A stretch of 44,051 nt of DNA from IMG/VR virus record IMGVR_UViG_3300045988_124839; one strand, 5' to 3'. The notes beneath the pieces were generated by a model. The model ran no database searches, had not been told where the DNA came from, and saw only the letters and a list, made by a program, of their open reading frames with translations. The stretch is from a virus (taxonomy: Duplodnaviria > Heunggongvirae > Uroviricota > Caudoviricetes). This document shows, piece after piece, positions 8,150-24,749 of the stretch. Position 1 is the stretch's first letter. The number at the start of each line of letters is the position of its first letter. Made by a program: the position numbers and the translations under genes.

Positions 8150-8749
8150 ATGCGTAAATTATGTGCTGTTATTCTGTCCGCAGTAGTCTGGCTGGTTGCC
8201 GTTGGTACGCCAGCGAGCGCAGCAGAGCATCAGTCCACACTAAGCGCCGGGTATCTTCAGGCCCATACTGATATGCCAGGCAGTGATGACCTGAAGGGCA
8301 TTAACGTGAAATACCGTTATGAATTTACGGACACGCTGGGGCTGGTGACGTCATTCAGTTATGCCAATGCCAAAGATGAGCAAAAAACGCATTACAGCGA
8401 TACCCGCTGGCATGAAGATTCAGTGCGTAACCGCTGGTTCAGCATGATGGCGGGGCCATCTGTACGCGTGAATGAATGGTTCAGTGCTTATGCGATGGCA
8501 GGTGTGGCTTACAGCCGTGTTTCGACGTTCTCCGGGGATTATCTCCGCGTAACTGACAACAAGGGGAAAACGCACGATGTGCTGACCGGAAGTGATGACG
8601 ATCGCCACAGCAACACGTCTCTGGCGTGGGGAGCTGGCGTGCAGTTTAACCCGACCGAATCCGTGGCCATTGATATTGCTTATGAAGGCTCCGGCAGTGG
8701 CGACTGGCGCACTGACGGTTTCATCGTGGGTGTCGGTTATAAGTTCTGA
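8150..8749 (+). CDS. lom: Lom/Ail family outer membrane protein
   Basis: 199 aa with signal peptide (MRKLCAVILSAVVWLVAVGTPASA), beta-barrel-like alternating pattern, C-terminal ...GYKF; lambda lom position after J. Confidence 0.9.
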   Translation: MRKLCAVILSAVVWLVAVGTPASAAEHQSTLSAGYLQAHTDMPGSDDLKGINVKYRYEFTDTLGLVTSFSYANAKDEQKTHYSDTRWHEDSVRNRWFSMMAGPSVRVNEWFSAYAMAGVAYSRVSTFSGDYLRVTDNKGKTHDVLTGSDDDRHSNTSLAWGAGVQFNPTESVAIDIAYEGSGSGDWRTDGFIVGVGYKF

Positions 8750-15586: not shown

Positions 15587-15628
15587 ACATAATTCCCCAT
15601 TATACGCGCGTATAATGGGGAATTATGT
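15587..15628. other. telRL: telRL-like telomere resolution site (42-bp perfect palindrome, protelomerase target)
   Basis: ACATAATTCCCCATTATACGCGCGTATAATGGGGAATTATGT is a perfect palindrome; core CCATTATACGCGCGTATAATGG matches the N15 telO core as recalled; 170 bp upstream of telN. Confidence 0.88.
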
Positions 15629-15798: not shown

Positions 15799-17706
15799 AT
15801 GAGCAAAGTAAAAATCGGTGAATTAATAAACTCACTTGTTAGCGATGTTGAGTCAATAGATAACTCTGACCGTCCTCAAGGGGAAAAAACAAAAAAAATA
15901 AAAGCTGTTGCATTAAAATTTAAAAATGCATTATTTAATGACAAGCGAAAGTTTAGGGGGAAAGGATTAGAAAAAAGAATTACAGCCAACACATTCAATG
16001 CCTATATGAGCAGGGCCAGAAAACGGTTTGATGATAAACTTCATCATAGCTTTGAAAAAAATATACATCGCCTATCTGAAAAGTATCCTTTATATAATGA
16101 GGAGCTATTATCATGGCTTTCTCTACCTGCTGCCGATATTCGCCAGAGAATGTCAGCTTTACAGGCAAAATTAAAATTAATTCTCCCTTTATCAGAAGAT
16201 TTATCTAATATCAGAATTGGTGATAACAAAAGTCATAATAAGTTATTAAAATTATCAAATAAATATAAAGAGTGGCAATTCGCCATTTCTGATTTAACTA
16301 GCGATAACTGGAAAGATAAGCGCGATTATTTATATAAATTACTACAGCAAGGATCTGCCTTACTTGAGGAGTTGAATCAGCTAAAAGTTAACCATGAGAT
16401 TCTCTATCATCTTCAACTAAGCCCTGCCGAACGCGCATCTATCCAGCAACGATGGGCAGACGTTCTGCACAATAAGAAACGTAACGTGGTGGTCATTGAT
16501 TACCCTAAATATATGCAAGCTATTTACGATATTATAAATAGCCCTGCTACATTAAATAATCTAAACACTCGTTCAGGTATGGCTCCTTTGGCATTTGCAC
16601 TTGCTGCATTGTCAGGAAGACGAATGATTGAGATTATGTATCAAGGTACATTTACTGTTTCTGGTAAGTATACCGTTGATTTTTTAGGCCAAGCAAAAAA
16701 AAGAACTTCTGATGATATAACCAGAAAAATATATACATTATGCGAAGCAAAAACATTTGTTTATTTAATAAATGTACTTCGCTCATGCCCAGCAGCATCT
16801 GATTTTGATGATGTCGTTAAAGGTTATGGAGATAACGACACACGCTCTGAAAACGGACGGATTAATGCCATATTAGCAAAGGCTTTTAACCCGTGGGTTA
16901 AATCATTTTTCAAAGATGACCGCCGTGTTTATAAAGATAGTCGTGCTATTTATGCCCGTATTGCGTATGAAATGTTTTTCCGCGTAGATCCTCGTTGGAA
17001 AAACGTAGATGAGGATGTTTTCTTTATGGAAATTTTAGGCCATGACGATGAAAACACTCAATTACACTATAAGCAATTCAAGCTGGCCAACTTCTCAAAG
17101 ACATGGAGGCCAAATACTGGAAACGAAAATACCAGGCTGGAAGCATTGCAGCAGCTTGATGACGAAATGCCAGGATTCGCCAGAGGAGATGCCGGAGTTC
17201 GTCTGCATAACACAGTTAAGCAGCTGGTAGAGCAGGACCCCTCTATAAAAATCACGAACAGCACTCTAAGAGCATTCAAATTTAGCCCTACAATGATTAG
17301 TCGATACCTGGAATTTGCTGCTGATGCTCTGGGGCAATTTGTTGGCGAAAATGGACAATGGCAGCTGAAAATAGATTCTCCAGAAATCGTTATGCCTGAC
17401 GAAGAAGAGCTGGAAGCAATACCTGAACAGACGGATGAATTATCAGAGGATGACGATCTGGATGACGACGAAATTGAGATAGAGGAAGAGGAAGAGGAAG
17501 AGGAAGAGGAAGAGAGCGTAGAAGAACAGCAACCGCCCGCGCCTTCTTCACCTGTATCTAAGCCGGTATTTAAGCCTGTGAGAAATATTGGTGATGGCTC
17601 ATACGTTGTTGAGTTTCATTATAATGGCCAGAATTATGCTTGGTCCGGCAGTGCAAACAGCCCTATATCAGCAATGCAGTTAGCATGGCTGACATATTTC
17701 GGATAA
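15799..17706 (+). CDS. telN: protelomerase TelN
   Basis: 635 aa; N-terminus MSKVKIGELIN...RPQG.KTK.IKA...KNALFNDKRKFRGKGL.KRITANTFNAYMSRARKRFDDKLHHSF and much of the body match N15 TelN as recalled; acidic Glu/Asp-rich C-terminal tract; RBS AGGAGAGGAAAG. Confidence 0.95.
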   Translation: MSKVKIGELINSLVSDVESIDNSDRPQGEKTKKIKAVALKFKNALFNDKRKFRGKGLEKRITANTFNAYMSRARKRFDDKLHHSFEKNIHRLSEKYPLYNEELLSWLSLPAADIRQRMSALQAKLKLILPLSEDLSNIRIGDNKSHNKLLKLSNKYKEWQFAISDLTSDNWKDKRDYLYKLLQQGSALLEELNQLKVNHEILYHLQLSPAERASIQQRWADVLHNKKRNVVVIDYPKYMQAIYDIINSPATLNNLNTRSGMAPLAFALAALSGRRMIEIMYQGTFTVSGKYTVDFLGQAKKRTSDDITRKIYTLCEAKTFVYLINVLRSCPAASDFDDVVKGYGDNDTRSENGRINAILAKAFNPWVKSFFKDDRRVYKDSRAIYARIAYEMFFRVDPRWKNVDEDVFFMEILGHDDENTQLHYKQFKLANFSKTWRPNTGNENTRLEALQQLDDEMPGFARGDAGVRLHNTVKQLVEQDPSIKITNSTLRAFKFSPTMISRYLEFAADALGQFVGENGQWQLKIDSPEIVMPDEEELEAIPEQTDELSEDDDLDDDEIEIEEEEEEEEEEESVEEQQPPAPSSPVSKPVFKPVRNIGDGSYVVEFHYNGQNYAWSGSANSPISAMQLAWLTYFG

Positions 17707-17751: not shown

Positions 17752-17916
17752 CTACCTCGCCTGCCCCTTTTCGTCCTCATCCAACTTTCTGATGGCCGTA
17801 GAATCAATACCCGCCGCCATACACACATCAGATGCAACAAACCACGGTTCGCCGTTGATCATCACTACACGAACCTGATGCTCTTCCTGAAAGGAAAATA
17901 CTGCTAACGCGCTCAT
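17752..17916 (-). CDS. short BRO-N-like ORF (possible antirepressor N-terminal fragment, 54 aa)
   Basis: Hand translation MSALAVFSFQEEHQVRVVMINGEPWFVASDVCMAAGIDSTAIRKLDEDEKGQAR; GEPWFVA.DV core resembles BRO-N domains; GGAGG 4 nt before ATG; not in the ORF track because it is under 60 aa. Confidence 0.4.
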   Translation of the reverse strand: MSALAVFSFQEEHQVRVVMINGEPWFVASDVCMAAGIDSTAIRKLDEDEKGQAR

Positions 17917-18146: not shown

Positions 18147-18683
18147 GCAGCCACCTCGCGCACCGGAATACGGGCAGACAATACCAGGACAAACCGGCTG
18201 GCAAACTGGCGACGAGCTTCCCGTTCAGATGACGCGATGGTGGAAAGATGATGGATGTGTGACTTTTTGTCTGTGCGAACGATTGCCGCAAATTTGAATT
18301 TGAACATGGTATGCACTCCGTTTAATTGGTCGTGCTACCACCAGAGTTCCTACGCTCTATATGGCGGTAGCCCAGACGGGGGTAGGAATACCGGTAAACG
18401 AAGAAACCGGCCAGCTAAAAGCTGCCCCATCTGAGCCACCATAAATTTGGTGTACGCAGATTTTACACACAAAAAAACACGCTGGCGCGTGTTGTGCGCT
18501 TCATTTACTCGGGTTCCTACGCCCGGCTACGGGATTTACCGTAGCGGAGTAAACTTTACCGTCAAAACGACGCGCACGTCAATAATTTGCAAAGACATTT
18601 TACCCCGTGACCAGTCACGGGGACAGGTGTTTTTATAGTTTGCTTGAACGAGTGATCAGAAGTTGATCGTTAATCAAAGGCCA

Positions 18684-18995
18684 TTACTGATTAAGAGATT
18701 GGAAATACCTAACTAACTTACCGGCATCATCACATTTTTCTTTATCTTCGTCCTTAACATAGCCGCGACAAAAGGCTGAATAAAATTTTGCATTTTCAGA
18801 AGCAAAAGCAGCCGTCGAAAGGAGCAGCTCTTTGCATGACTCTTTTGATGCAGCATCGGGATTATTTTTACATGCAAGCTCCGCTGATGAGTTAATAACA
18901 GAAATGCTATCTTCCTGGGCATAAACCGCAGCAGAAAAGGCAAAACATAAAACAAAAATAAAACTCTTCACTTTATCTCCTGTAACAGTCATCAC
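18684..18995 (-). CDS. small secreted cysteine-containing protein (signal peptide)
   Basis: N-terminal KVKSFIFVLCFAFSAAVYA-QED signal-peptidase I type signal; four Cys in the mature part; AT-rich gene. Confidence 0.5.
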   Translation of the reverse strand: MMTVTGDKVKSFIFVLCFAFSAAVYAQEDSISVINSSAELACKNNPDAASKESCKELLLSTAAFASENAKFYSAFCRGYVKDEDKEKCDDAGKLVRYFQSLNQ

Positions 18996-18998
18996 AAT

Positions 18999-19406
18999 TC
19001 AATCAACTTTTTTAGCATCAGCCATACGATTCAACCAGGAATCAACAATCGGTTGCTCATCTACAGAATGTTTACCAGGTATAACTCGCCAGCTATCTTG
19101 CGAAAATCTGCCGTACTTATGCGGGAATAGGCCTTTCTTTATCTCCCACCATGTACTAGGAAAACCATCCACAAAAGTACCAATTAACAGGAGAGGGACA
19201 AAAATCAGAGCTACAAACCATCGTGCAAGAAAGTGTTCAACAACAACATTTTCACCGTTGTAGTAATACGCATACGCATCCAATATGCGAATTTTCCTTA
19301 CCTTAAAAATAGCCTTATGCTGAGAACGACTTAACTTGATACGAATATATCCCTTATCCAAAGGGGATTCGTATTTGTATGATTGAACAGCCATTTTTAA
19401 CCCCAC
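18999..19406 (-). CDS. membrane protein (one transmembrane segment)
   Basis: 135 aa with hydrophobic segment WFVALIFVPLLLIGTFV; contiguous with neighbours on the - strand. Confidence 0.45.
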   Translation of the reverse strand: MGLKMAVQSYKYESPLDKGYIRIKLSRSQHKAIFKVRKIRILDAYAYYYNGENVVVEHFLARWFVALIFVPLLLIGTFVDGFPSTWWEIKKGLFPHKYGRFSQDSWRVIPGKHSVDEQPIVDSWLNRMADAKKVD

Positions 19407-19723
19407 TCACCATCAGCAAACAAAGCGTTATACTCTGACAATGGTAGACGGTTGCCCTCGATGTAGAGATTCAGTTCATACTTCGTCTCCGGGTTTTCCT
19501 TGTCGGCTCGTTCCCAACGCTCAGCAGCCTTACGCGCCAATAATTCCACTGCTTTCAGATAATCCTCCGTACGGAACCAGCCAAAGATAAGGCCACGATC
19601 TGTTACAGCCCAGGCGACCTTTTTTTCTTCCTCCTGGATAGCCCTAATGCGTCGTTCGCATTCATCCCGGCAGAACTGCAGCTGACGGTAATCAAGTTTG
19701 TCCAAAAATGCAGTAGTAGACAT
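19397..19723 (-). CDS. hypothetical protein (108 aa)
   Basis: Compact ORF overlapping its neighbours, downstream of repA on the same strand. Confidence 0.45.
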   Translation of the reverse strand: MSTTAFLDKLDYRQLQFCRDECERRIRAIQEEEKKVAWAVTDRGLIFGWFRTEDYLKAVELLARKAAERWERADKENPETKYELNLYIEGNRLPLSEYNALFADGEWG

Positions 19724-19727
19724 ATTT

Positions 19728-19919
19728 TTACTCCCCGTTCACCGAAAATTCACGATAGAAACGTTTCCACATACGATAAGTCTGCGCAAATTGTTCACCA
19801 CGAAACATCGCCTTCCTGGCCTTCATGTTTTCCTTGTGAGACTTTCGGTCTATGAACCAAAACCATAGATGGAACACACAAAGCAAGAGACACAAAGATA
19901 ATATCCAATCATTACCCAT
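19728..19919 (-). CDS. small hydrophobic protein (63 aa)
   Basis: Internal ATG at 19919 overlapping the repA stop; hydrophobic segment LSLCLLLCVFHLWFWFI. Confidence 0.35.
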   Translation of the reverse strand: MGNDWILSLCLLLCVFHLWFWFIDRKSHKENMKARKAMFRGEQFAQTYRMWKRFYREFSVNGE

Positions 19920-22900
19920 AGAAAGCGCCCTGCTCTTCGTAGCTGCATGAGCTATTCCCCGTAATGTATTCACGTAACCGCCGCAGCTCATTGCTGGAAA
20001 GGTGATCCATGAACTCTGTGAGGTACAGGGATGCAAACGTCATAGCTATGCTGGCTGATGACCATGATGACATAGTGGCCAACTCCTCACTGGAAAGCGC
20101 ACTCATCGCCCAGGACTCAGGTACAGCCACTGGCAACACGGCCAAAGCCTCAGAAATTACTGAATGAGGGGCGTTTTGAACCTGCTCGTTTGTGGATCGC
20201 GTTTTATCATCCATATATATATTGAGATCCAAATCGCGATCCATTTCGATGGCTGTCTTCTCGGCTTTACGCGTTTTTAGGGTTAGGCCATCTTTCTGAC
20301 GCTGAACAAGAATATCCAGCATAAATGCCGCTGATTCAGGCTCAACAAAACGCAAGGTTGGACGCTTATCGCCGTCTCTGCCGCGACGTTTACCTGTTTT
20401 AAGGCCAAGAGAGTCGCAAATGTTTTTAAACAACGCTTCCGGCACTTTAGGCTTCCCTTTTGGCGTCATAAAACCACCAATGTGCAGAACGTTATTCAAC
20501 AGGTCACGGCGTTCGGCTGTCATGAGGTTATCTCGAGCGAATTTGAGACGCTCCTGAGTCGCCTCGCCGGTCATAGTCTCAGGGTTGATACCGCAGTCGA
20601 TAAAGTACTGCCGGAGAGTTGCTGATTTAAGCGCATAGAAACCGCGCGCCCCGACTTCAACAGTAGGAGTAGCTTTTACCTTGTGATCGATTATTCCAGG
20701 GAATTTAGTTTTAAAGACATCATCAGCCTGCTCGCGAGTCATCGCGGTCACTACAAAATATTGCCACTGTCCCGCCTGACGGTATGCGTAGGTAAAATTG
20801 ATGGCTGCTTCTTCCCGGTCGTAACGACGAGCTGTTACCTCATCTAAAAGCATTGTTTCATAGCGGCGAATTTTGTCTCGAGCACCATCGAAATAGAATT
20901 TTAGCGTGCCTTCTTCAACCGGTAGTTTCAGTTCGTTTTCAATATCCCAGCGGACAAGTTTTGCCTGTTCTTCAAGCGTCAGCGCGCGTTTTTTTAGCAG
21001 TTCTTCACGCTCTGATTCTTGTGGAGTTTCTGTATTGAGGTGCAGATCCAGTGTCTGTTCCCACACAATATCCCGCGCTTCTTTACGCAGATCTTTACCG
21101 ATATCATTCGCAGCATAATCGGTGGCCAGCGGCGATACCTTATAACCGTCGCTGTGCATGATGCAGATCATGTTGCTGGCGTAGTCGTTACGCGCAGTCG
21201 CTTCAATTGCGGCTGCTTTAATTTTCATCCTGGTAAAGTCGGTATTGGCCACCCCCATTGATATACGGTCGCCATCGAAAACGACATCCGTCAGTTCACC
21301 GTTCATACCTGCGGTAGCAAGCAATGCCTGGGCGAATGCTCGTTCTATTTTTTGCGGGTCAGTTTCACGTTTTGCACGAGCTTTATCAAAGCCGATAATA
21401 AATTCTTTCGCTGTACGGTCGCGGCGTAGCATTTGCACTGCGTCGCTGGGTACAACTTCACCACAGAACATGCCGAAATGACGGTCAAAATGTTTTTGCT
21501 CAATCGACACGCCGGATGAAATAGACGGGCTATAAATCAGGCCGTCGTATTTTTTGACCATCTTTTTCGGTTGATTGGTAAATGCTTCAACTTCTGGCTC
21601 TGGTTTGTTTTTCTGGTTTACACACAGAAATTTCTTACCAGGAAAATGCATTCTCAGGGTGGCTGTCACATCTTCTGCAAAGGTGGAGCTGTCGGTGGCC
21701 AACATGATTTTTTCCCCATCCGATACAGCTTTCACCACCTCGGTCATGATGCGATCTTTTTCTGTATAAAAAACCCGGATTGGCTCACCTGTTTCGCGGT
21801 TGCGAACATCAACAGGTAATTCAATTACGTGGATCTGCAGCCATGCCGGTAAACCTAGTTCTTCACGGCGTTTCATAGCCAGTTCAGCCAGGTCAACCAG
21901 CAGATCGTTCGCATCAGCATCTACCATGATTGGGTGTTGTTCCGTTCTGGCCAGCGCGTCAATTAGCGTATTGAATACAGCCACCGGGTTTTCCATAGCC
22001 CGACCGGAAAGAACGGCACGTAGCCCTTGTGTGGCCTCGTCAAAGCCAAAATAGTCGTGCTGGCGCATCAACGGTTGCCAGCAGTTTTTAACAATCGAGT
22101 TTATGCAGATGGTCAGTTTACTGGCGTATGGAGCCATTTCCTGATAGCCAGGATCCTGATAGTGCAGGATATCGGCTTTTACACCTTTTCCTTCTGTCAT
22201 CATTTCCCACAGGCCACCAATAAGGGAGACACGGTGAGCAACAGAGATACCACGTTCTGAGCTATGCATTAACGGTCGTAACAATCCAGTAGATTTGCCG
22301 GAACCCATACCAGCACGGACGATGACTATCCCCTGTAGTGATTGCACGTACTTCAGGACATCATCGGTCATTACCGAAGTTTCAAAACGCTTATAGGTGA
22401 TATGTTGAGGGCGTTTATTGGGATCAGTTATGCGTTCGCTGAAAGAGCGCGGAGCCTGGGCAATACGGCACTTTTTATTCAGGCGACGGGCAATGTGGTC
22501 TTTTACCGTAGCGCGATAGATATTTTCCAGTCCCATTTCACGCAGAACGATGCAGAACATGTTAAATAAATCTGACGGACTGTTAGGAACCGGACAGGTT
22601 AGCATGCCAATATCAACCGCTCTCAGCAGCTCTTTGGCAAAAGTACGACGGTTATCCCGCTTAATTGTCTTCAGGCGGTTGAGCGTCAGAGATAGCAAAT
22701 CAGTACCGGTTTTCAGGCGGTTTGCTGTTGCAAATAGTTGACGTGCTGTTTCACGAAGTCCACGTAGTTTGTGCAGGTCGTTGAAGTCACTGCACTCCAT
22801 TTGCGGATCGTCTTCAAAAGTTGGATAGACGCAGCGGACATCGTTGAATTTCGATAAGATTTCATAGCCAGTCCGCAGGCCTGTATTCCCTTTTCCTTCT

Positions 22901-23907
22901 GTGGCAGATTTCCGGTCATTATCCAGTGCGCAGGTGATTTTTGCCGCCGGGTACATGTTTACCAGTTGTTCCACAACATGAACCATGTTGTTAGCGGATA
23001 CAGCGACAACCACAGCGTCAAAGCGTTTATCTTTTTTCGTGGCAAGCCAGATGGATGCACCAGTAGCAAAACCTTCTGTAACAGCGATGTTTTGCGCCCC
23101 TTTCAGCTCACCGATAACAAAGCAGGCACCGACGAAATCGCCGCTGGTTACTGCGCTGGTCTGGTATTTCCCACCTTGTTTGTCGATTCGCTGCCAACCC
23201 ACAATACGACCATCATAACGACCGTCCAGGTGAGCCAGAGGGATAGCCATATATGTGGTTGGCCCCCGGCTCCATTTCGCACTGTCGTGACTGGTCACGC
23301 GACGCACATCACATGAACTAAAAACGTCACGAATACCTTTTTTAATCGCATATGGCCATGAGCCGTCTTCAGCCGGAGCATGTTCCCACGCGCTGTGGAA
23401 TGCCAGCCATCCCAGCAAACGTTCATGGTCCATTTGGTTGTTTTTCAGGTCATTAATTCGTTTTTGTTCTTCACGGCGACGACGTGCTTCGGCCTGACGT
23501 TCTATTCTTTCCCGTTCTTCTTCCGGTTGTGCGACCACGGTCGCATTATTCCGTTGTTGCTCACGGCGATATTCAGAAAACAGGAAGGAGAAACCGCTCC
23601 ATGAGCCAGCATCGCTGCCTTTATGGACGAAGTTAATGAACGGGTAATCAATCCCTTTGCTGTGTTCCAGCCTGGAGTAAATTTCTACGCGTCCTTTCAG
23701 GCTCTTTTCGAGAGCTTCTGGAGATGTTTTATTGTATGAAGAGTAACGCTCACCCCCCCCGCGAGGGTTGAGTTGGATGTTGTCGGAACAGGCAGGCCAG
23801 TTGATACCAGCCATCTGTGCCAGCTCGGTTAGTTCATCCCGTGCTGCTTCAATTAGCGAGAACGGATCGCTGCCAAAGCGATCCGCATAGAAATCGTTTA
23901 ATGTCAT
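19912..23907 (-). CDS. repA: replication protein RepA (primase-helicase)
   Basis: 1331 aa; Walker A GMGSGKST; size and position (leftward, between telN and cB) as N15 RepA (about 1320 aa). Confidence 0.85.
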   Translation of the reverse strand: MTLNDFYADRFGSDPFSLIEAARDELTELAQMAGINWPACSDNIQLNPRGGGERYSSYNKTSPEALEKSLKGRVEIYSRLEHSKGIDYPFINFVHKGSDAGSWSGFSFLFSEYRREQQRNNATVVAQPEEERERIERQAEARRRREEQKRINDLKNNQMDHERLLGWLAFHSAWEHAPAEDGSWPYAIKKGIRDVFSSCDVRRVTSHDSAKWSRGPTTYMAIPLAHLDGRYDGRIVGWQRIDKQGGKYQTSAVTSGDFVGACFVIGELKGAQNIAVTEGFATGASIWLATKKDKRFDAVVVAVSANNMVHVVEQLVNMYPAAKITCALDNDRKSATEGKGNTGLRTGYEILSKFNDVRCVYPTFEDDPQMECSDFNDLHKLRGLRETARQLFATANRLKTGTDLLSLTLNRLKTIKRDNRRTFAKELLRAVDIGMLTCPVPNSPSDLFNMFCIVLREMGLENIYRATVKDHIARRLNKKCRIAQAPRSFSERITDPNKRPQHITYKRFETSVMTDDVLKYVQSLQGIVIVRAGMGSGKSTGLLRPLMHSSERGISVAHRVSLIGGLWEMMTEGKGVKADILHYQDPGYQEMAPYASKLTICINSIVKNCWQPLMRQHDYFGFDEATQGLRAVLSGRAMENPVAVFNTLIDALARTEQHPIMVDADANDLLVDLAELAMKRREELGLPAWLQIHVIELPVDVRNRETGEPIRVFYTEKDRIMTEVVKAVSDGEKIMLATDSSTFAEDVTATLRMHFPGKKFLCVNQKNKPEPEVEAFTNQPKKMVKKYDGLIYSPSISSGVSIEQKHFDRHFGMFCGEVVPSDAVQMLRRDRTAKEFIIGFDKARAKRETDPQKIERAFAQALLATAGMNGELTDVVFDGDRISMGVANTDFTRMKIKAAAIEATARNDYASNMICIMHSDGYKVSPLATDYAANDIGKDLRKEARDIVWEQTLDLHLNTETPQESEREELLKKRALTLEEQAKLVRWDIENELKLPVEEGTLKFYFDGARDKIRRYETMLLDEVTARRYDREEAAINFTYAYRQAGQWQYFVVTAMTREQADDVFKTKFPGIIDHKVKATPTVEVGARGFYALKSATLRQYFIDCGINPETMTGEATQERLKFARDNLMTAERRDLLNNVLHIGGFMTPKGKPKVPEALFKNICDSLGLKTGKRRGRDGDKRPTLRFVEPESAAFMLDILVQRQKDGLTLKTRKAEKTAIEMDRDLDLNIYMDDKTRSTNEQVQNAPHSVISEALAVLPVAVPESWAMSALSSEELATMSSWSSASIAMTFASLYLTEFMDHLSSNELRRLREYITGNSSCSYEEQGAFYG

Positions 23908-24152: not shown

Positions 24153-24749
24153 TCATCTACCCTCAACCATGAATGATTTGATCGTTCCGACTATTTGGTG
24201 AACAAATTCAAGATCGCTTTTCCTGAAGATGGCGCGTTGTGAGTTTGTTCCATCCAGATAGTAATTTTCATCATCAAAACGGGCCAGGCGCTGGATAGTG
24301 ATATTTCCTGCAGTATCACGAACCAGAACATCCTCGCCGGGGACCAGTTCCAGCGCAGAATCGACCAGGAGAAAATCGCCTGGCTGATAGTTTCCCTGCG
24401 TAAGATTGCTGATAGTTAACGCATACACAGTATTGCGCTGGCTGATGAATGGCAGGAATCGCTCAGTATTTGGAACCTGTCCCGGCTTCCACTCTTCATC
24501 CGGCCCACTTTCAGTTGTGCCAATAACAGGAATGCGATCAGGATCATATTCTGTCCCATATAGCACCCAATGCACTGGCTTGCGTAAGCACTTAGCCAGG
24601 GCAATACCTATCTCCAGTGACGGCATTACGTCGCCACGTTCTAAGTTTTGGACGCCTGCTATAGAGATATCGACAGCCTCAGCAACTTCTCGCAACGTCA
24701 GCTTCATCTCTAAACGGCGTGCTTTCAGTCGTTCGCCTCGTGTTTTCAT
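24153..24749 (-). CDS. cB: CI-like prophage repressor (N-terminal HTH, C-terminal S24/LexA-like domain)
   Basis: 198 aa; N-terminal HTH (LTLREVAEAVDISIAGVQNLERG); C-terminal region resembles LexA/CI S24 fold; divergent from a cro-like gene across an operator-like spacer. Confidence 0.75.
   Translation of the reverse strand: MKTRGERLKARRLEMKLTLREVAEAVDISIAGVQNLERGDVMPSLEIGIALAKCLRKPVHWVLYGTEYDPDRIPVIGTTESGPDEEWKPGQVPNTERFLPFISQRNTVYALTISNLTQGNYQPGDFLLVDSALELVPGEDVLVRDTAGNITIQRLARFDDENYYLDGTNSQRAIFRKSDLEFVHQIVGTIKSFMVEGR

What the first reader, a model, noticed from the sequence alone, without database searches (positions are those of the whole stretch)
18684..19919. Secreted Cys-containing protein and small membrane proteins encoded downstream of repA
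Four small AT-rich genes follow repA on the same strand: a 103-aa protein with a cleavable signal peptide and four cysteines, a 135-aa single-pass membrane protein, a 108-aa soluble protein and a 63-aa hydrophobic peptide. Envelope-targeted products expressed with the replication gene in the lysogen are typical of superinfection exclusion or lysogenic conversion functions.
Basis: inference. Interest (0 to 1): 0.45.

Follow-up and report, generated by a model that had tools for sequence, protein, structure and literature searches.

The report
Accessory genes behind phage-plasmid repA
Four small genes follow the replication gene of an N15-like linear phage-plasmid of E. coli: two belong to the conserved backbone, and two are swappable cargo, one of them an uncharacterised secreted disulfide-bonded protein that sits where related phages carry bacteriocin-immunity cassettes and probably protects the carrier cell.

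Summary
The four ORFs are real genes, co-oriented and tightly packed behind repA of an N15-like (Ravinvirus) telomere phage-plasmid. They are not one functional cassette.

- **g4** (63 aa) has an N-terminal TM helix and a basic tail. Its ATG overlaps the repA stop codon, and the family is conserved in many telomere phages.
- **g3** (108 aa) is the N15 gp35 family. It was present in every locus surveyed (though the survey was anchored on it), has the same GC as repA, and has no known fold relative.
- **g2** (131 aa, single-pass membrane protein) occupies a position held in other relatives by a gp33-like gene. Relatives of g2 also lie next to replication genes in virulent siphoviruses.
- **g1** is Sec-exported. 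The mature protein is 77 aa, acidic and helical, with four invariant Cys. It occupies the hypervariable slot just before the isrK/C4 RNA locus. In relatives that slot holds lipoproteins or the TelA/ImmA telocin cassette. Distant g1 relatives are morons next to tape-measure and tail-tip genes of other temperate siphoviruses.

A GenBank label calling g1 "Spackle" fails sequence, profile and fold tests. A protective periplasmic role for g1 (superinfection exclusion or bacteriocin immunity) is plausible but unproven. Interest is moderate.

The parts
19912..23907 (-). repA (1331 aa primase/helicase-type replication protein), the upstream gene of the operon
   Evidence: ORF. RefSeq names it 'plasmid replication protein, CyRepA1 family'. 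Syntenic with N15 gene 37.
19728..19919 (-). g4: 63-aa small membrane protein. The TM helix is residues 5-23 (nt 19851-19907), followed by a basic C-terminal tail predicted to be cytoplasmic.
   Evidence: The ATG lies inside TATGGGTAA and overlaps the repA stop by 8 nt; NAR688 has the same overlap as TATGGCTAA. The family alignment shows a conserved motif, ARG.AFA..YR.W..VYREI. The exact sequence occurs on 91 contigs and close variants on 1000 or more. PGAP does not call it. It is absent in p23GD35035_P4.
19397..19723 (-). g3: 108-aa cytoplasmic protein, a homolog of N15 gp35 (phrog_10878)
18999..19394 (-). g2: 131-aa single-pass inner-membrane protein (phrog_15458). The TM helix is about residues 59-78 (nt 19161-19220). 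The N-terminal domain is basic.
   Evidence: The motif W59...G77-F-P-x-T81 is conserved in relatives from telomere phages and virulent siphoviruses.
18684..18971 (-). g1: 95-aa precursor (phrog_26765). The signal peptide is residues 1-18 (nt 18918-18971). The mature periplasmic protein is 77 aa (nt 18687-18917), pI 4.8, with four invariant Cys.
   Evidence: The AF2 model has three helices in the mature part (pLDDT 75.5).
18591..18634 (.). Imperfect palindrome (stem CCCCGTGAC / GTCACGGGG) between g1 and the anti-repressor locus. It may mark the end of the operon. It has no canonical U-tract on the minus strand.
18360..18545 (-). isrK-like RNA (18472-18545) and C4 antisense RNA (18360-18446). 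This is the conserved landmark bounding the variable slot.
   Evidence: Rfam scores of 62.5 and 73.6 bits, both above gathering threshold. A promoter-like site lies at 18582-18553 and a terminator at 18493-18476.

Best explanation
The region is the distal part of the repA operon of an N15-like linear phage-plasmid. It is a mosaic of backbone genes and cargo, not one system.

- g4 and g3 belong to the replication-module backbone. g4 is a small membrane-anchored protein with a basic cytoplasmic tail, translationally coupled to RepA. g3 is the gp35 family, present in every surveyed locus, with an unassigned alpha/beta fold. Their roles are unknown, but they are linked to the replicon rather than to conversion.
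- g2 is one of two mutually exclusive modules at the next position. It is a single-pass inner-membrane protein.
- g1 is cargo in the hypervariable terminal slot. I infer that it is exported by Sec, cleaved after Ala18, and oxidised by DsbA to two loop-stapling disulfides (C34-C46 and C68-C80). The product would be an 8.5-kDa acidic three-helix periplasmic protein.

The most likely role of g1 is protective. It would bind and neutralise a protein that crosses the periplasm of the carrier cell, either part of an incoming phage's DNA-injection machinery (superinfection exclusion) or a periplasm-acting bacteriocin (orphan immunity).

Shown: gene models, conservation, export signal, invariant Cys, slot variability, positions of relatives. 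Inferred: localisation, disulfide pairing, expression pattern, and the protective function.
For: Synteny and mosaicism:
- 45 loci anchored on g3 share the frame repA - [g4-like, gp36-like or nothing] - gp35 - [g2-like or gp33-like] - [variable] - isrK/C4 RNAs, in 20 or more architectures.
- The terminal slot holds g1 (9 loci), a 270-aa lipoprotein (5), a 143-aa lipoprotein (2), ImmA plus TelA (8), or other small ORFs.
- In pPEC1013-3, g1 alone is replaced by the lipoprotein while g2 and g3 stay.
- g1 and g2 have 38-39% GC against 49% for g3 and repA.

g1 family:
- The signal peptide and four Cys are invariant.
- P0018 lies in the same slot of another telomere phage.
- P0021 and P0023 lie immediately upstream of tape-measure genes. 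P0021 has a promoter-like site just before it and a strong terminator just after it.
- P0020 sits with a lipoprotein between tail genes I and J, flanked by terminators.
- Among 50,697 deposited phage genomes the family occurs only in the temperate PhiR46_1.

Precedents:
- TelA/ImmA lie in the same slot and are expressed in lysogens. TelB, TelC and TelD are peptidoglycan-degrading telocins that would need periplasmic immunity (PMC12042878).
- g1 resembles T4 Spackle in size, charge, helicity and disulfide content: 77 aa and pI 4.8 against 75 aa and pI 4.6.
Against: - There is no functional evidence of any kind.
- g1 has no detectable homology to any characterised exclusion or immunity protein.
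- No promoter-like site precedes g1 or g2 in this window, so lysogen expression would depend on read-through from the repressor-controlled repA.
- RepA itself and the two ORFs after it were not among the nine proteins detected in the NAR688 lysogen.
- g2 relatives in virulent phages argue against a purely lysogenic role for g2.
- The AF2 model of g1 is only moderately confident (pLDDT 75.5, six sequences).
Confidence: 0.5

Rival explanations
1. All four genes form one superinfection-exclusion or lysogenic-conversion cassette expressed with repA.
For: The genes are co-oriented and tightly packed, and three of the four products are envelope-targeted.
Against: g3 was present in every surveyed locus (the survey was anchored on it) and has backbone GC. 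g4 is conserved with its start overlapping the repA stop. The genes assort independently: g1 is swapped alone, g2 alternates with gp33-like genes, and g4 is absent in one relative. g2 relatives occur in virulent phages.
Confidence: 0.08
2. g1 is specifically an orphan periplasmic immunity protein. It would protect the carrier against peptidoglycan-targeting bacteriocins or telocins made by competing telomere phages, rather than against phage infection.
For: g1 occupies the same slot as the telocin-immunity cassettes. TelB is pesticin-like and TelC and TelD degrade peptidoglycan, so their immunity proteins must act in the periplasm. E. coli and Shigella N15-like elements carry no telocin homolog (bioRxiv 10.1101/2025.09.12.675607), which fits orphan immunity.
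Against: g1 relatives sit inside tail-gene clusters of integrated prophages with no toxin gene nearby. No similarity to ImmA was found. ImmB, ImmC and ImmD could not be compared because their sequences are not held.
Confidence: 0.17
3. g1 is a true homolog of T4 Spackle, as annotated in GenBank PV340565, and inhibits a tail-associated lysozyme.
For: The PhiR46_1 record labels the ortholog 'Spackle exclusion protein'. Precursor length, mature size, pI, helicity and the presence of a disulfide are similar.
Confidence: 0.03
4. g2 and g4, possibly with g3, are replication-associated membrane proteins. They might tether RepA or the linear replicon to the inner membrane, or modulate RepA. On this reading they are not conversion or exclusion factors.
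For: The g4 start overlaps the repA stop in divergent elements, and its conserved basic tail is predicted to be cytoplasmic. g2 relatives lie directly after a DNA polymerase gene (Proteus phage Isfahan) and after repA (Yersinia P840, Enterobacter MStein-2023a). The g2 N-terminal domain is basic.
Against: g4 is missing in some relatives. g2 is replaced by unrelated gp33-like genes (hhalign probability 0.4%). From my own knowledge, plus the title of Ziegelin et al. 2005 cited in PMC10612081, repA alone is reported to suffice as a minimal replicon in N15 and PY54. No DNA-binding domain was detected.
Confidence: 0.2
5. g1 is a host-interaction or fitness factor of the lysogen, affecting envelope stress tolerance, colonisation or serum resistance as lambda Bor and Lom do, and has no role in defence.
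For: It shows moron behaviour, envelope location and occurrence in gut Enterobacteriaceae. The same phage carries a Lom homolog.
Against: There is no similarity to any known virulence or fitness factor. The repeated placement next to tape-measure and tail-tip genes hints at a phage-related target, though only weakly.
Confidence: 0.12

Closest known systems
N15 genes 33-36, the block between repA (gene 37) and the anti-repressor locus
   Same: Same position, strand and number of genes. g3 is 63.6% identical to gp35.
   Different: g1, g2 and g4 have no BLAST similarity to gp33, gp34 or gp36. g2 against gp33 is not significant by hhalign. N15 genes 33-36 themselves have no assigned function.
TelA/ImmA telocin-immunity cassette of Klebsiella telomere phage NAR688 (PMC12042878)
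   Same: Same genomic slot: after the gp35 homolog and before the isrK/C4 RNAs. The products are envelope-directed, and the slot's products were detected in lysogens.
   Different: This window has no toxin gene. g1 and g2 are unrelated to TelA and ImmA. Both genes here are co-directional with repA, whereas TelA is convergent.
T4 Spackle (gp61.3), a periplasmic inhibitor of the gp5 tail lysozyme (PMC7677548)
   Same: Sec signal peptide. Mature protein of about 75 aa, acidic, all-helical, disulfide-bonded and periplasmic.
   Different: No homology by sequence, profile or fold. Two disulfides are predicted instead of one. Three long helices are predicted instead of a flat five-helix bundle. It is encoded by a temperate phage-plasmid, not a virulent T-even phage.
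HK97 gp15, a moron-encoded superinfection-exclusion protein between the tail chaperone and tape-measure genes (its function is from my own knowledge; the record annotates it 'moron product')
   Same: The g1 relatives P0021 and P0023 occupy the same position, immediately upstream of the tape-measure gene and followed by a terminator. g4 has the same size and layout as gp15, an N-terminal TM helix with a hydrophilic tail.
   Different: No homology of gp15 to g1, g2 or g4. gp15 is membrane-anchored, whereas g1 is soluble and periplasmic.
P1 Sim and Streptococcus phage TP-J34 Ltp (from my own knowledge; not tested here)
   Same: Both are prophage-encoded, signal-peptide-bearing proteins outside the cytoplasm that block DNA entry of superinfecting phage. 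P1 is also a phage-plasmid. Ltp consists of small helical domains reported to target the tape-measure protein.
   Different: No comparison was run. Sim is about 25 kDa and Ltp is a lipoprotein.
Lambda Lom and Bor, classic lysogenic-conversion morons
   Same: Envelope-targeted prophage cargo with deviant GC. A Lom homolog lies in this same window at 8150-8749.
   Different: Unrelated proteins. Lom is an outer-membrane beta-barrel and Bor is a lipoprotein.

Membership tests
T4 Spackle (gp61.3, phrog_1586) | Sequence or profile homology to Spackle | tested here: not met
   BLASTP E=41. hhalign aligns only signal-peptide residues 1-16. g1 is in phrog_26765 and Spackle in phrog_1586. PDB sequence searches do not find Spackle entries.
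T4 Spackle (gp61.3, phrog_1586) | Compact flat helical bundle with a single Cys29-Cys81 disulfide (PMC7677548) | tested here: not met
T4 Spackle (gp61.3, phrog_1586) | Cleavable signal peptide and periplasmic location | tested here: met
   Sequence features only: MKSFIFVLCFAFSAAVYA|QE, with an A/S-x-A site kept in relatives. Localisation was not measured.
T4 Spackle (gp61.3, phrog_1586) | Binds and inhibits the gp5-type tail lysozyme | not testable with these tools
   Needs biochemistry or complex prediction.
N15 gp35 family (phrog_10878) | Full-length homology to gp35 and position immediately downstream of repA, with or without one small ORF between | tested here: met
   g3 is 63.6% identical over residues 2-108. 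phrog_10878 E=2e-52. Syntenic in 45 loci.
Telocin-immunity cassette (TelA-E / ImmA-E) | Located between the gp35 homolog and the anti-repressor RNA locus of a telomere phage | tested here: met
   Layouts of NAR688 and the window compared.
Telocin-immunity cassette (TelA-E / ImmA-E) | A bacteriocin-like toxin gene next to its immunity gene | tested here: not met
   The slot holds only g2 and g1. No ORF of 80 aa or more on the opposite strand and no TelA or ImmA similarity.
Moron (extra gene in a prophage genome, as defined for HK97/HK022; definition from my own knowledge) | Present or absent between otherwise collinear relatives | tested here: met
   g1 is replaced by lipoproteins, telocin cassettes or nothing. 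g2 is replaced by gp33-like genes.
Moron (extra gene in a prophage genome, as defined for HK97/HK022; definition from my own knowledge) | Nucleotide composition different from neighbouring genes | tested here: met
   g1 38.2% and g2 39.4% GC against 48.7-48.9% for repA and g3.
Moron (extra gene in a prophage genome, as defined for HK97/HK022; definition from my own knowledge) | Own promoter and terminator allowing expression from the repressed prophage | tested here: inconclusive
   No promoter-like site lies before g1 or g2 in the window, and only an imperfect hairpin follows g1. The relative P0021 does have a promoter-like site just upstream and a strong terminator just downstream.
HK97 gp15-type superinfection exclusion | Homology to gp15 | tested here: not met
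   hhalign probability is 5.8% for g1, 0.5% for g2 and 0.3% for g4.
Known anti-phage defence systems (PADLOC-DB) | Match to any PADLOC model | tested here: not met
   No hit for any of the four proteins at E up to 1.

The most novel reading that the evidence does not exclude
The g1 family (phrog_26765 and phrog_21025) would be a new class of small, doubly disulfide-stapled periplasmic superinfection-exclusion proteins of lambda-like-tailed temperate siphoviruses. It would block DNA injection by binding the tape-measure or tail-tip proteins as they cross the periplasm. That would explain why relatives are repeatedly inserted next to tape-measure and tail-tip genes. In parallel, the conserved RepA-coupled g4 could be a previously unannotated membrane anchor or regulator of linear-plasmid replication.
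Probability: 0.22. Interest if true: 0.6.

Novelty: new variant of a known kind. Interest (0 to 1): 0.36.

Why it matters
N15-like phage-plasmids are common in E. coli and Shigella. The exact g1 sequence is on at least 1000 contigs. The locus is in 17 of 5426 complete E. coli genomes, always on plasmids, 14 of them of about 46-51 kb. They are prevalent in S. sonnei. In Klebsiella the equivalent slot carries bacteriocins that shape competition between strains. What E. coli and Shigella elements carry there is uncharacterised.

Showing that g1 or g2 excludes phages or neutralises bacteriocins would add a new protein family to the short list of periplasmic exclusion factors. It would also bear on phage-therapy host range. 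The work corrects a misleading 'Spackle' annotation and points out a conserved small gene (g4) that standard pipelines miss.

Tried and rejected
**No informative hits**
- Pfam, NCBIfam and PADLOC scans of all four proteins found nothing significant.
- PDB sequence searches with g1, the g1 profile and the g3 profile gave only chance-level hits. The best were plant invertase inhibitor 2cj4 at E 0.81, DUF2385 at E 0.12 and OspC at E 0.037.

**Hypotheses rejected**
- Spackle homology.
- Homology of g1, g2 or g4 to HK97 gp15.
- Homology of g2 to N15 gp33, suggested by a similar hydrophobic segment and a GF.xT motif in a MAFFT alignment. hhalign gives 0.4% probability.

**Leads that fell through**
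- I first took 'gp35' detected in the NAR688 lysogen proteome to be the g3 homolog. The supplement shows it is a RelE/ParE toxin in that paper's own numbering.
- A scan of genome contigs for gp35 relatives returned one locus only.
- No paper describing PhiR46_1 was found, and none on N15 gp33-36.
- PMC1111997 (PY54 minimal replicon) is not held.
Full report
**Context**

The window is an N15-like (Ravinvirus) linear phage-plasmid. Its landmarks are:
- protelomerase telN at 15799-17706 (+);
- an intact telRL core palindrome at 15597-15618;
- a 1331-aa repA at 19912-23907 (-);
- a CB-type repressor at 24153-24749 (-);
- lambda-like tail genes.

The closest deposited phage is Escherichia phage PhiR46_1 (PV340565), 95.5% identical over the region. 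The locus occurs in 17 of 5426 complete E. coli genomes, always on plasmids, 14 of them of about 46-51 kb. The exact g1 protein is on at least 1000 contigs from E. coli, Shigella sonnei and E. albertii.

**Checking the observation**

Four co-oriented ORFs lie directly behind repA. Start codons were checked against ribosome-binding sites, PHROG profiles and independent annotations. The resulting models are:

| Gene | Coordinates (-) | Length | Start context |
|---|---|---|---|
| g4 | 19728-19919 | 63 aa | ATG inside TATGGGTAA, overlapping the repA stop by 8 nt |
| g3 | 19397-19723 | 108 aa | GGGGAG upstream |
| g2 | 18999-19394 | 131 aa (not 135) | ATG 2 nt after the g3 stop |
| g1 | 18684-18971 | 95 aa (not 103) | GTG after AGGAG |

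- g1 starts MKSFIFVLCFAFSAAVYA|QEDS, a typical Sec signal with no lipobox. The mature protein is 77 aa, 8.5 kDa, pI 4.8, with four Cys.
- g2 has one hydrophobic helix at residues 60-78. Its N-terminal side is more basic (net +6 against +2), which suggests an N-in, C-out topology.
- g4 has a helix at residues 5-23 followed by a tail of net charge +6, suggesting N-out, C-in.
- g3 has no hydrophobic segment.
- Coding is supported by pN/pS of 0.22-0.65 and intact frames in relatives, and by homologous families.
- 'AT-rich' is true of g1, g2 and g4 (38-42% GC). It is not true of g3 (48.9%), which equals repA.

**What each gene is**

*g4* is not called by PGAP. Even so, it belongs to a conserved family found directly after repA in Klebsiella NAR688, Pseudocitrobacter and several IMG/VR telomere phages. 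Members share an N-terminal TM helix and a motif, ARG.AFA..YR.W..VYREI. The ATG/stop overlap with repA is kept in NAR688. The gene is absent from some relatives and replaced by gp36-like genes in N15.

*g2* (phrog_15458) has relatives downstream of repA in Yersinia phage P840 (ORF32) and Enterobacter phage MStein-2023a. It also has relatives in non-telomere siphoviruses of other genera. One lies directly after the DNA polymerase gene of Proteus phage Isfahan (Gorganvirus). Another is in Salmonella phage CF-SP1 (Swiduovirus). W59 and a G-F-P-x-T motif just after the TM helix are conserved.

*g1* (phrog_26765) is a very small family. An exhaustive HMMER search of 1.84 billion representative proteins found 13 hits, several of them frameshifted copies. 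Four genuine distant relatives (32-43% identity) keep the signal peptide and all four Cys. The AF2 model (pLDDT 75.5) predicts three helices in the mature part. C34/C46 and C68/C80 lie on either side of the two inter-helix loops. From this I infer two loop-stapling disulfides.

**The 'Spackle' label**

PhiR46_1 annotates the g1 ortholog as 'Spackle exclusion protein'. I took T4 sp from NC_000866 and tested this.
- BLASTP gives E=41.
- Profile-sequence hhalign aligns only the first 16 signal-peptide residues.
- The two proteins fall in different PHROGs.
- Sequence searches of the PDB, which holds 6X6O, 6XC0 and 6XC1, do not find Spackle.

The resemblance is physical only: precursor length, mature size, acidity, helicity, disulfide bonding. 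g1 may work like Spackle, but it is not a member of that family.

**Comparative anatomy of the locus**

I anchored on g3, fetched 40 IMG/VR loci, and added N15, NAR688, KpLi5 and a Pseudocitrobacter contig. All share this frame:

repA - gap A (15-512 nt) - gp35 - slot B (about 500-2400 nt) - isrK-like/C4 RNAs

- Gap A holds a g4-like gene, a gp36-like gene or nothing.
- The first position of slot B holds a g2-like gene (16 loci) or a gp33-like gene (18 loci), never both. The two are not detectably homologous.
- The last position, just before the RNA locus, is hypervariable. It holds g1 (9 loci), a 270-aa lipoprotein with an LLSGC lipobox (5), a 143-aa lipoprotein (2), ImmA plus convergent TelA (8), or other small ORFs.
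- In plasmid pPEC1013-3, g1 alone is replaced by the 270-aa lipoprotein while g2 and g3 are retained.

In NAR688 this slot is the published telocin locus. TelA and ImmA were detected by proteomics in lysogens. Other telocins (TelB, TelC, TelD) degrade peptidoglycan (PMC12042878). A survey of clinical isolates found no telocin homolog in E. coli and Shigella N15-like elements. What fills the slot there is therefore uncharacterised.

**Where g1 relatives sit**

- P0018 is in the same terminal slot of another telomere phage.
- P0021 and P0023 (the latter in Citrobacter chromosomes) lie immediately upstream of tape-measure genes. P0021 has a promoter-like site 18 nt before its start and a strong terminator after it. 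HK97's moron gp15 occupies the same position but is unrelated.
- P0020 (Pseudescherichia, Leclercia) forms a two-gene unit with a 137-aa lipoprotein between tail genes I and J, bounded by terminators.
- All of these phages have homologous lambda-type tape-measure proteins.
- Among 50,697 deposited phage genomes the family occurs only in PhiR46_1. It is therefore a prophage and phage-plasmid cargo gene, not a feature of isolated virulent phages.

**Interpretation**

The four genes are best read as the distal repA operon, made of two backbone genes (g4, g3) and two low-GC acquired modules (g2, g1).

For g1, four things point to a protective periplasmic binder: export, invariant disulfides, moron behaviour, and a slot shared with lipoproteins and bacteriocin-immunity cassettes. 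It could act as a superinfection-exclusion factor against incoming phage machinery, or as an orphan immunity protein against periplasm-acting bacteriocins. This is inference, and no homology supports it.

For g2 and g4, linkage to replication genes keeps a replication-associated role open. In g4 the linkage is translational coupling; in g2 it extends to virulent phages.

On expression, no internal promoter-like site was found. In N15, repA is under CB control, and the antirepressor raises copy number. I therefore expect low expression in lysogens and high expression after induction. Neither was measured.

**Verdict**

The families are uncharacterised but sit in a known kind of cargo hotspot. 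Interest is moderate.

Noticed in passing
window 8150-8749 (+): A full-length Lom outer-membrane protein homolog (phrog_108, E 1e-107) lies just after the J-like tail gene. Lom is a classic lysogenic-conversion moron.
   Followed up: partly
window 17752-17916 (-): The antirepressor gene is truncated to a 54-aa BRO-N fragment. N15 gp30 Ant is 264 aa, and YDC107_1 and pPEC1013-3 have ORFs of about 260 aa. The same truncation is in PhiR46_1 and pCAVP367-48. This could affect SOS-type induction.
   Followed up: partly
window 18360-18545 (-): An isrK-like RNA (62.5 bits) and a C4 antisense RNA (73.6 bits) lie in tandem. A promoter-like site is at 18582-18553 and a terminator at 18493-18476. This is the N15-type anti-immunity control locus.
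   Followed up: partly
window 15597-15618: The N15 telRL core palindrome CCATTATACGCGCGTATAATGG is intact with zero mismatches. The window is therefore in the uncut (virion or circularly assembled) arrangement, not the linear-prophage one.
   Followed up: partly
window 18713-18955 (-) and proteins P0003, P0005, P0007, P0008, P0010: Several database 'homologs' of g1 are chimeras of the g1 frame and the overlapping 80-aa frame. They are frameshifted copies, probably from homopolymer errors in long-read plasmid assemblies.
   Followed up: partly
PV340565.1 3086-3373 (L001): The GenBank annotation 'Spackle exclusion protein' for the g1 ortholog appears to rest on signal-peptide similarity only. 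It should not be propagated.
   Followed up: yes
window 19728-19919 (-); L023, L024, L025, L027, L028: NCBI PGAP does not annotate the conserved 63-aa g4 gene in any RefSeq plasmid inspected. It leaves a 188-nt 'intergenic' gap after repA.
   Followed up: yes
L011 4937-5723: A g1 relative (P0020) is paired with a 137-aa lipoprotein (LLSGC lipobox, phrog_6823) as a terminator-flanked two-gene moron between lambda-like tail genes I and J.
   Followed up: partly
L019 5708-6297: In Citrobacter prophages a 98-aa FtsK-gamma-domain ORF overlaps the start of the g1 relative P0023, immediately upstream of the tape-measure gene.
   Followed up: no
L027 (E. coli RL465 plasmid III) compared with the window: Sharp mosaic boundaries: g3 is 100% identical but the adjacent g2 only 89%, and g1 is replaced. 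This indicates recent recombination within the operon.
   Followed up: no
window 19397-19723 (-): The g3/gp35 family has a conserved C18-x3-C22 pair in its long helix. It also has distant relatives in roughly 145-150 kb phages of Serratia and Acinetobacter.
   Followed up: no
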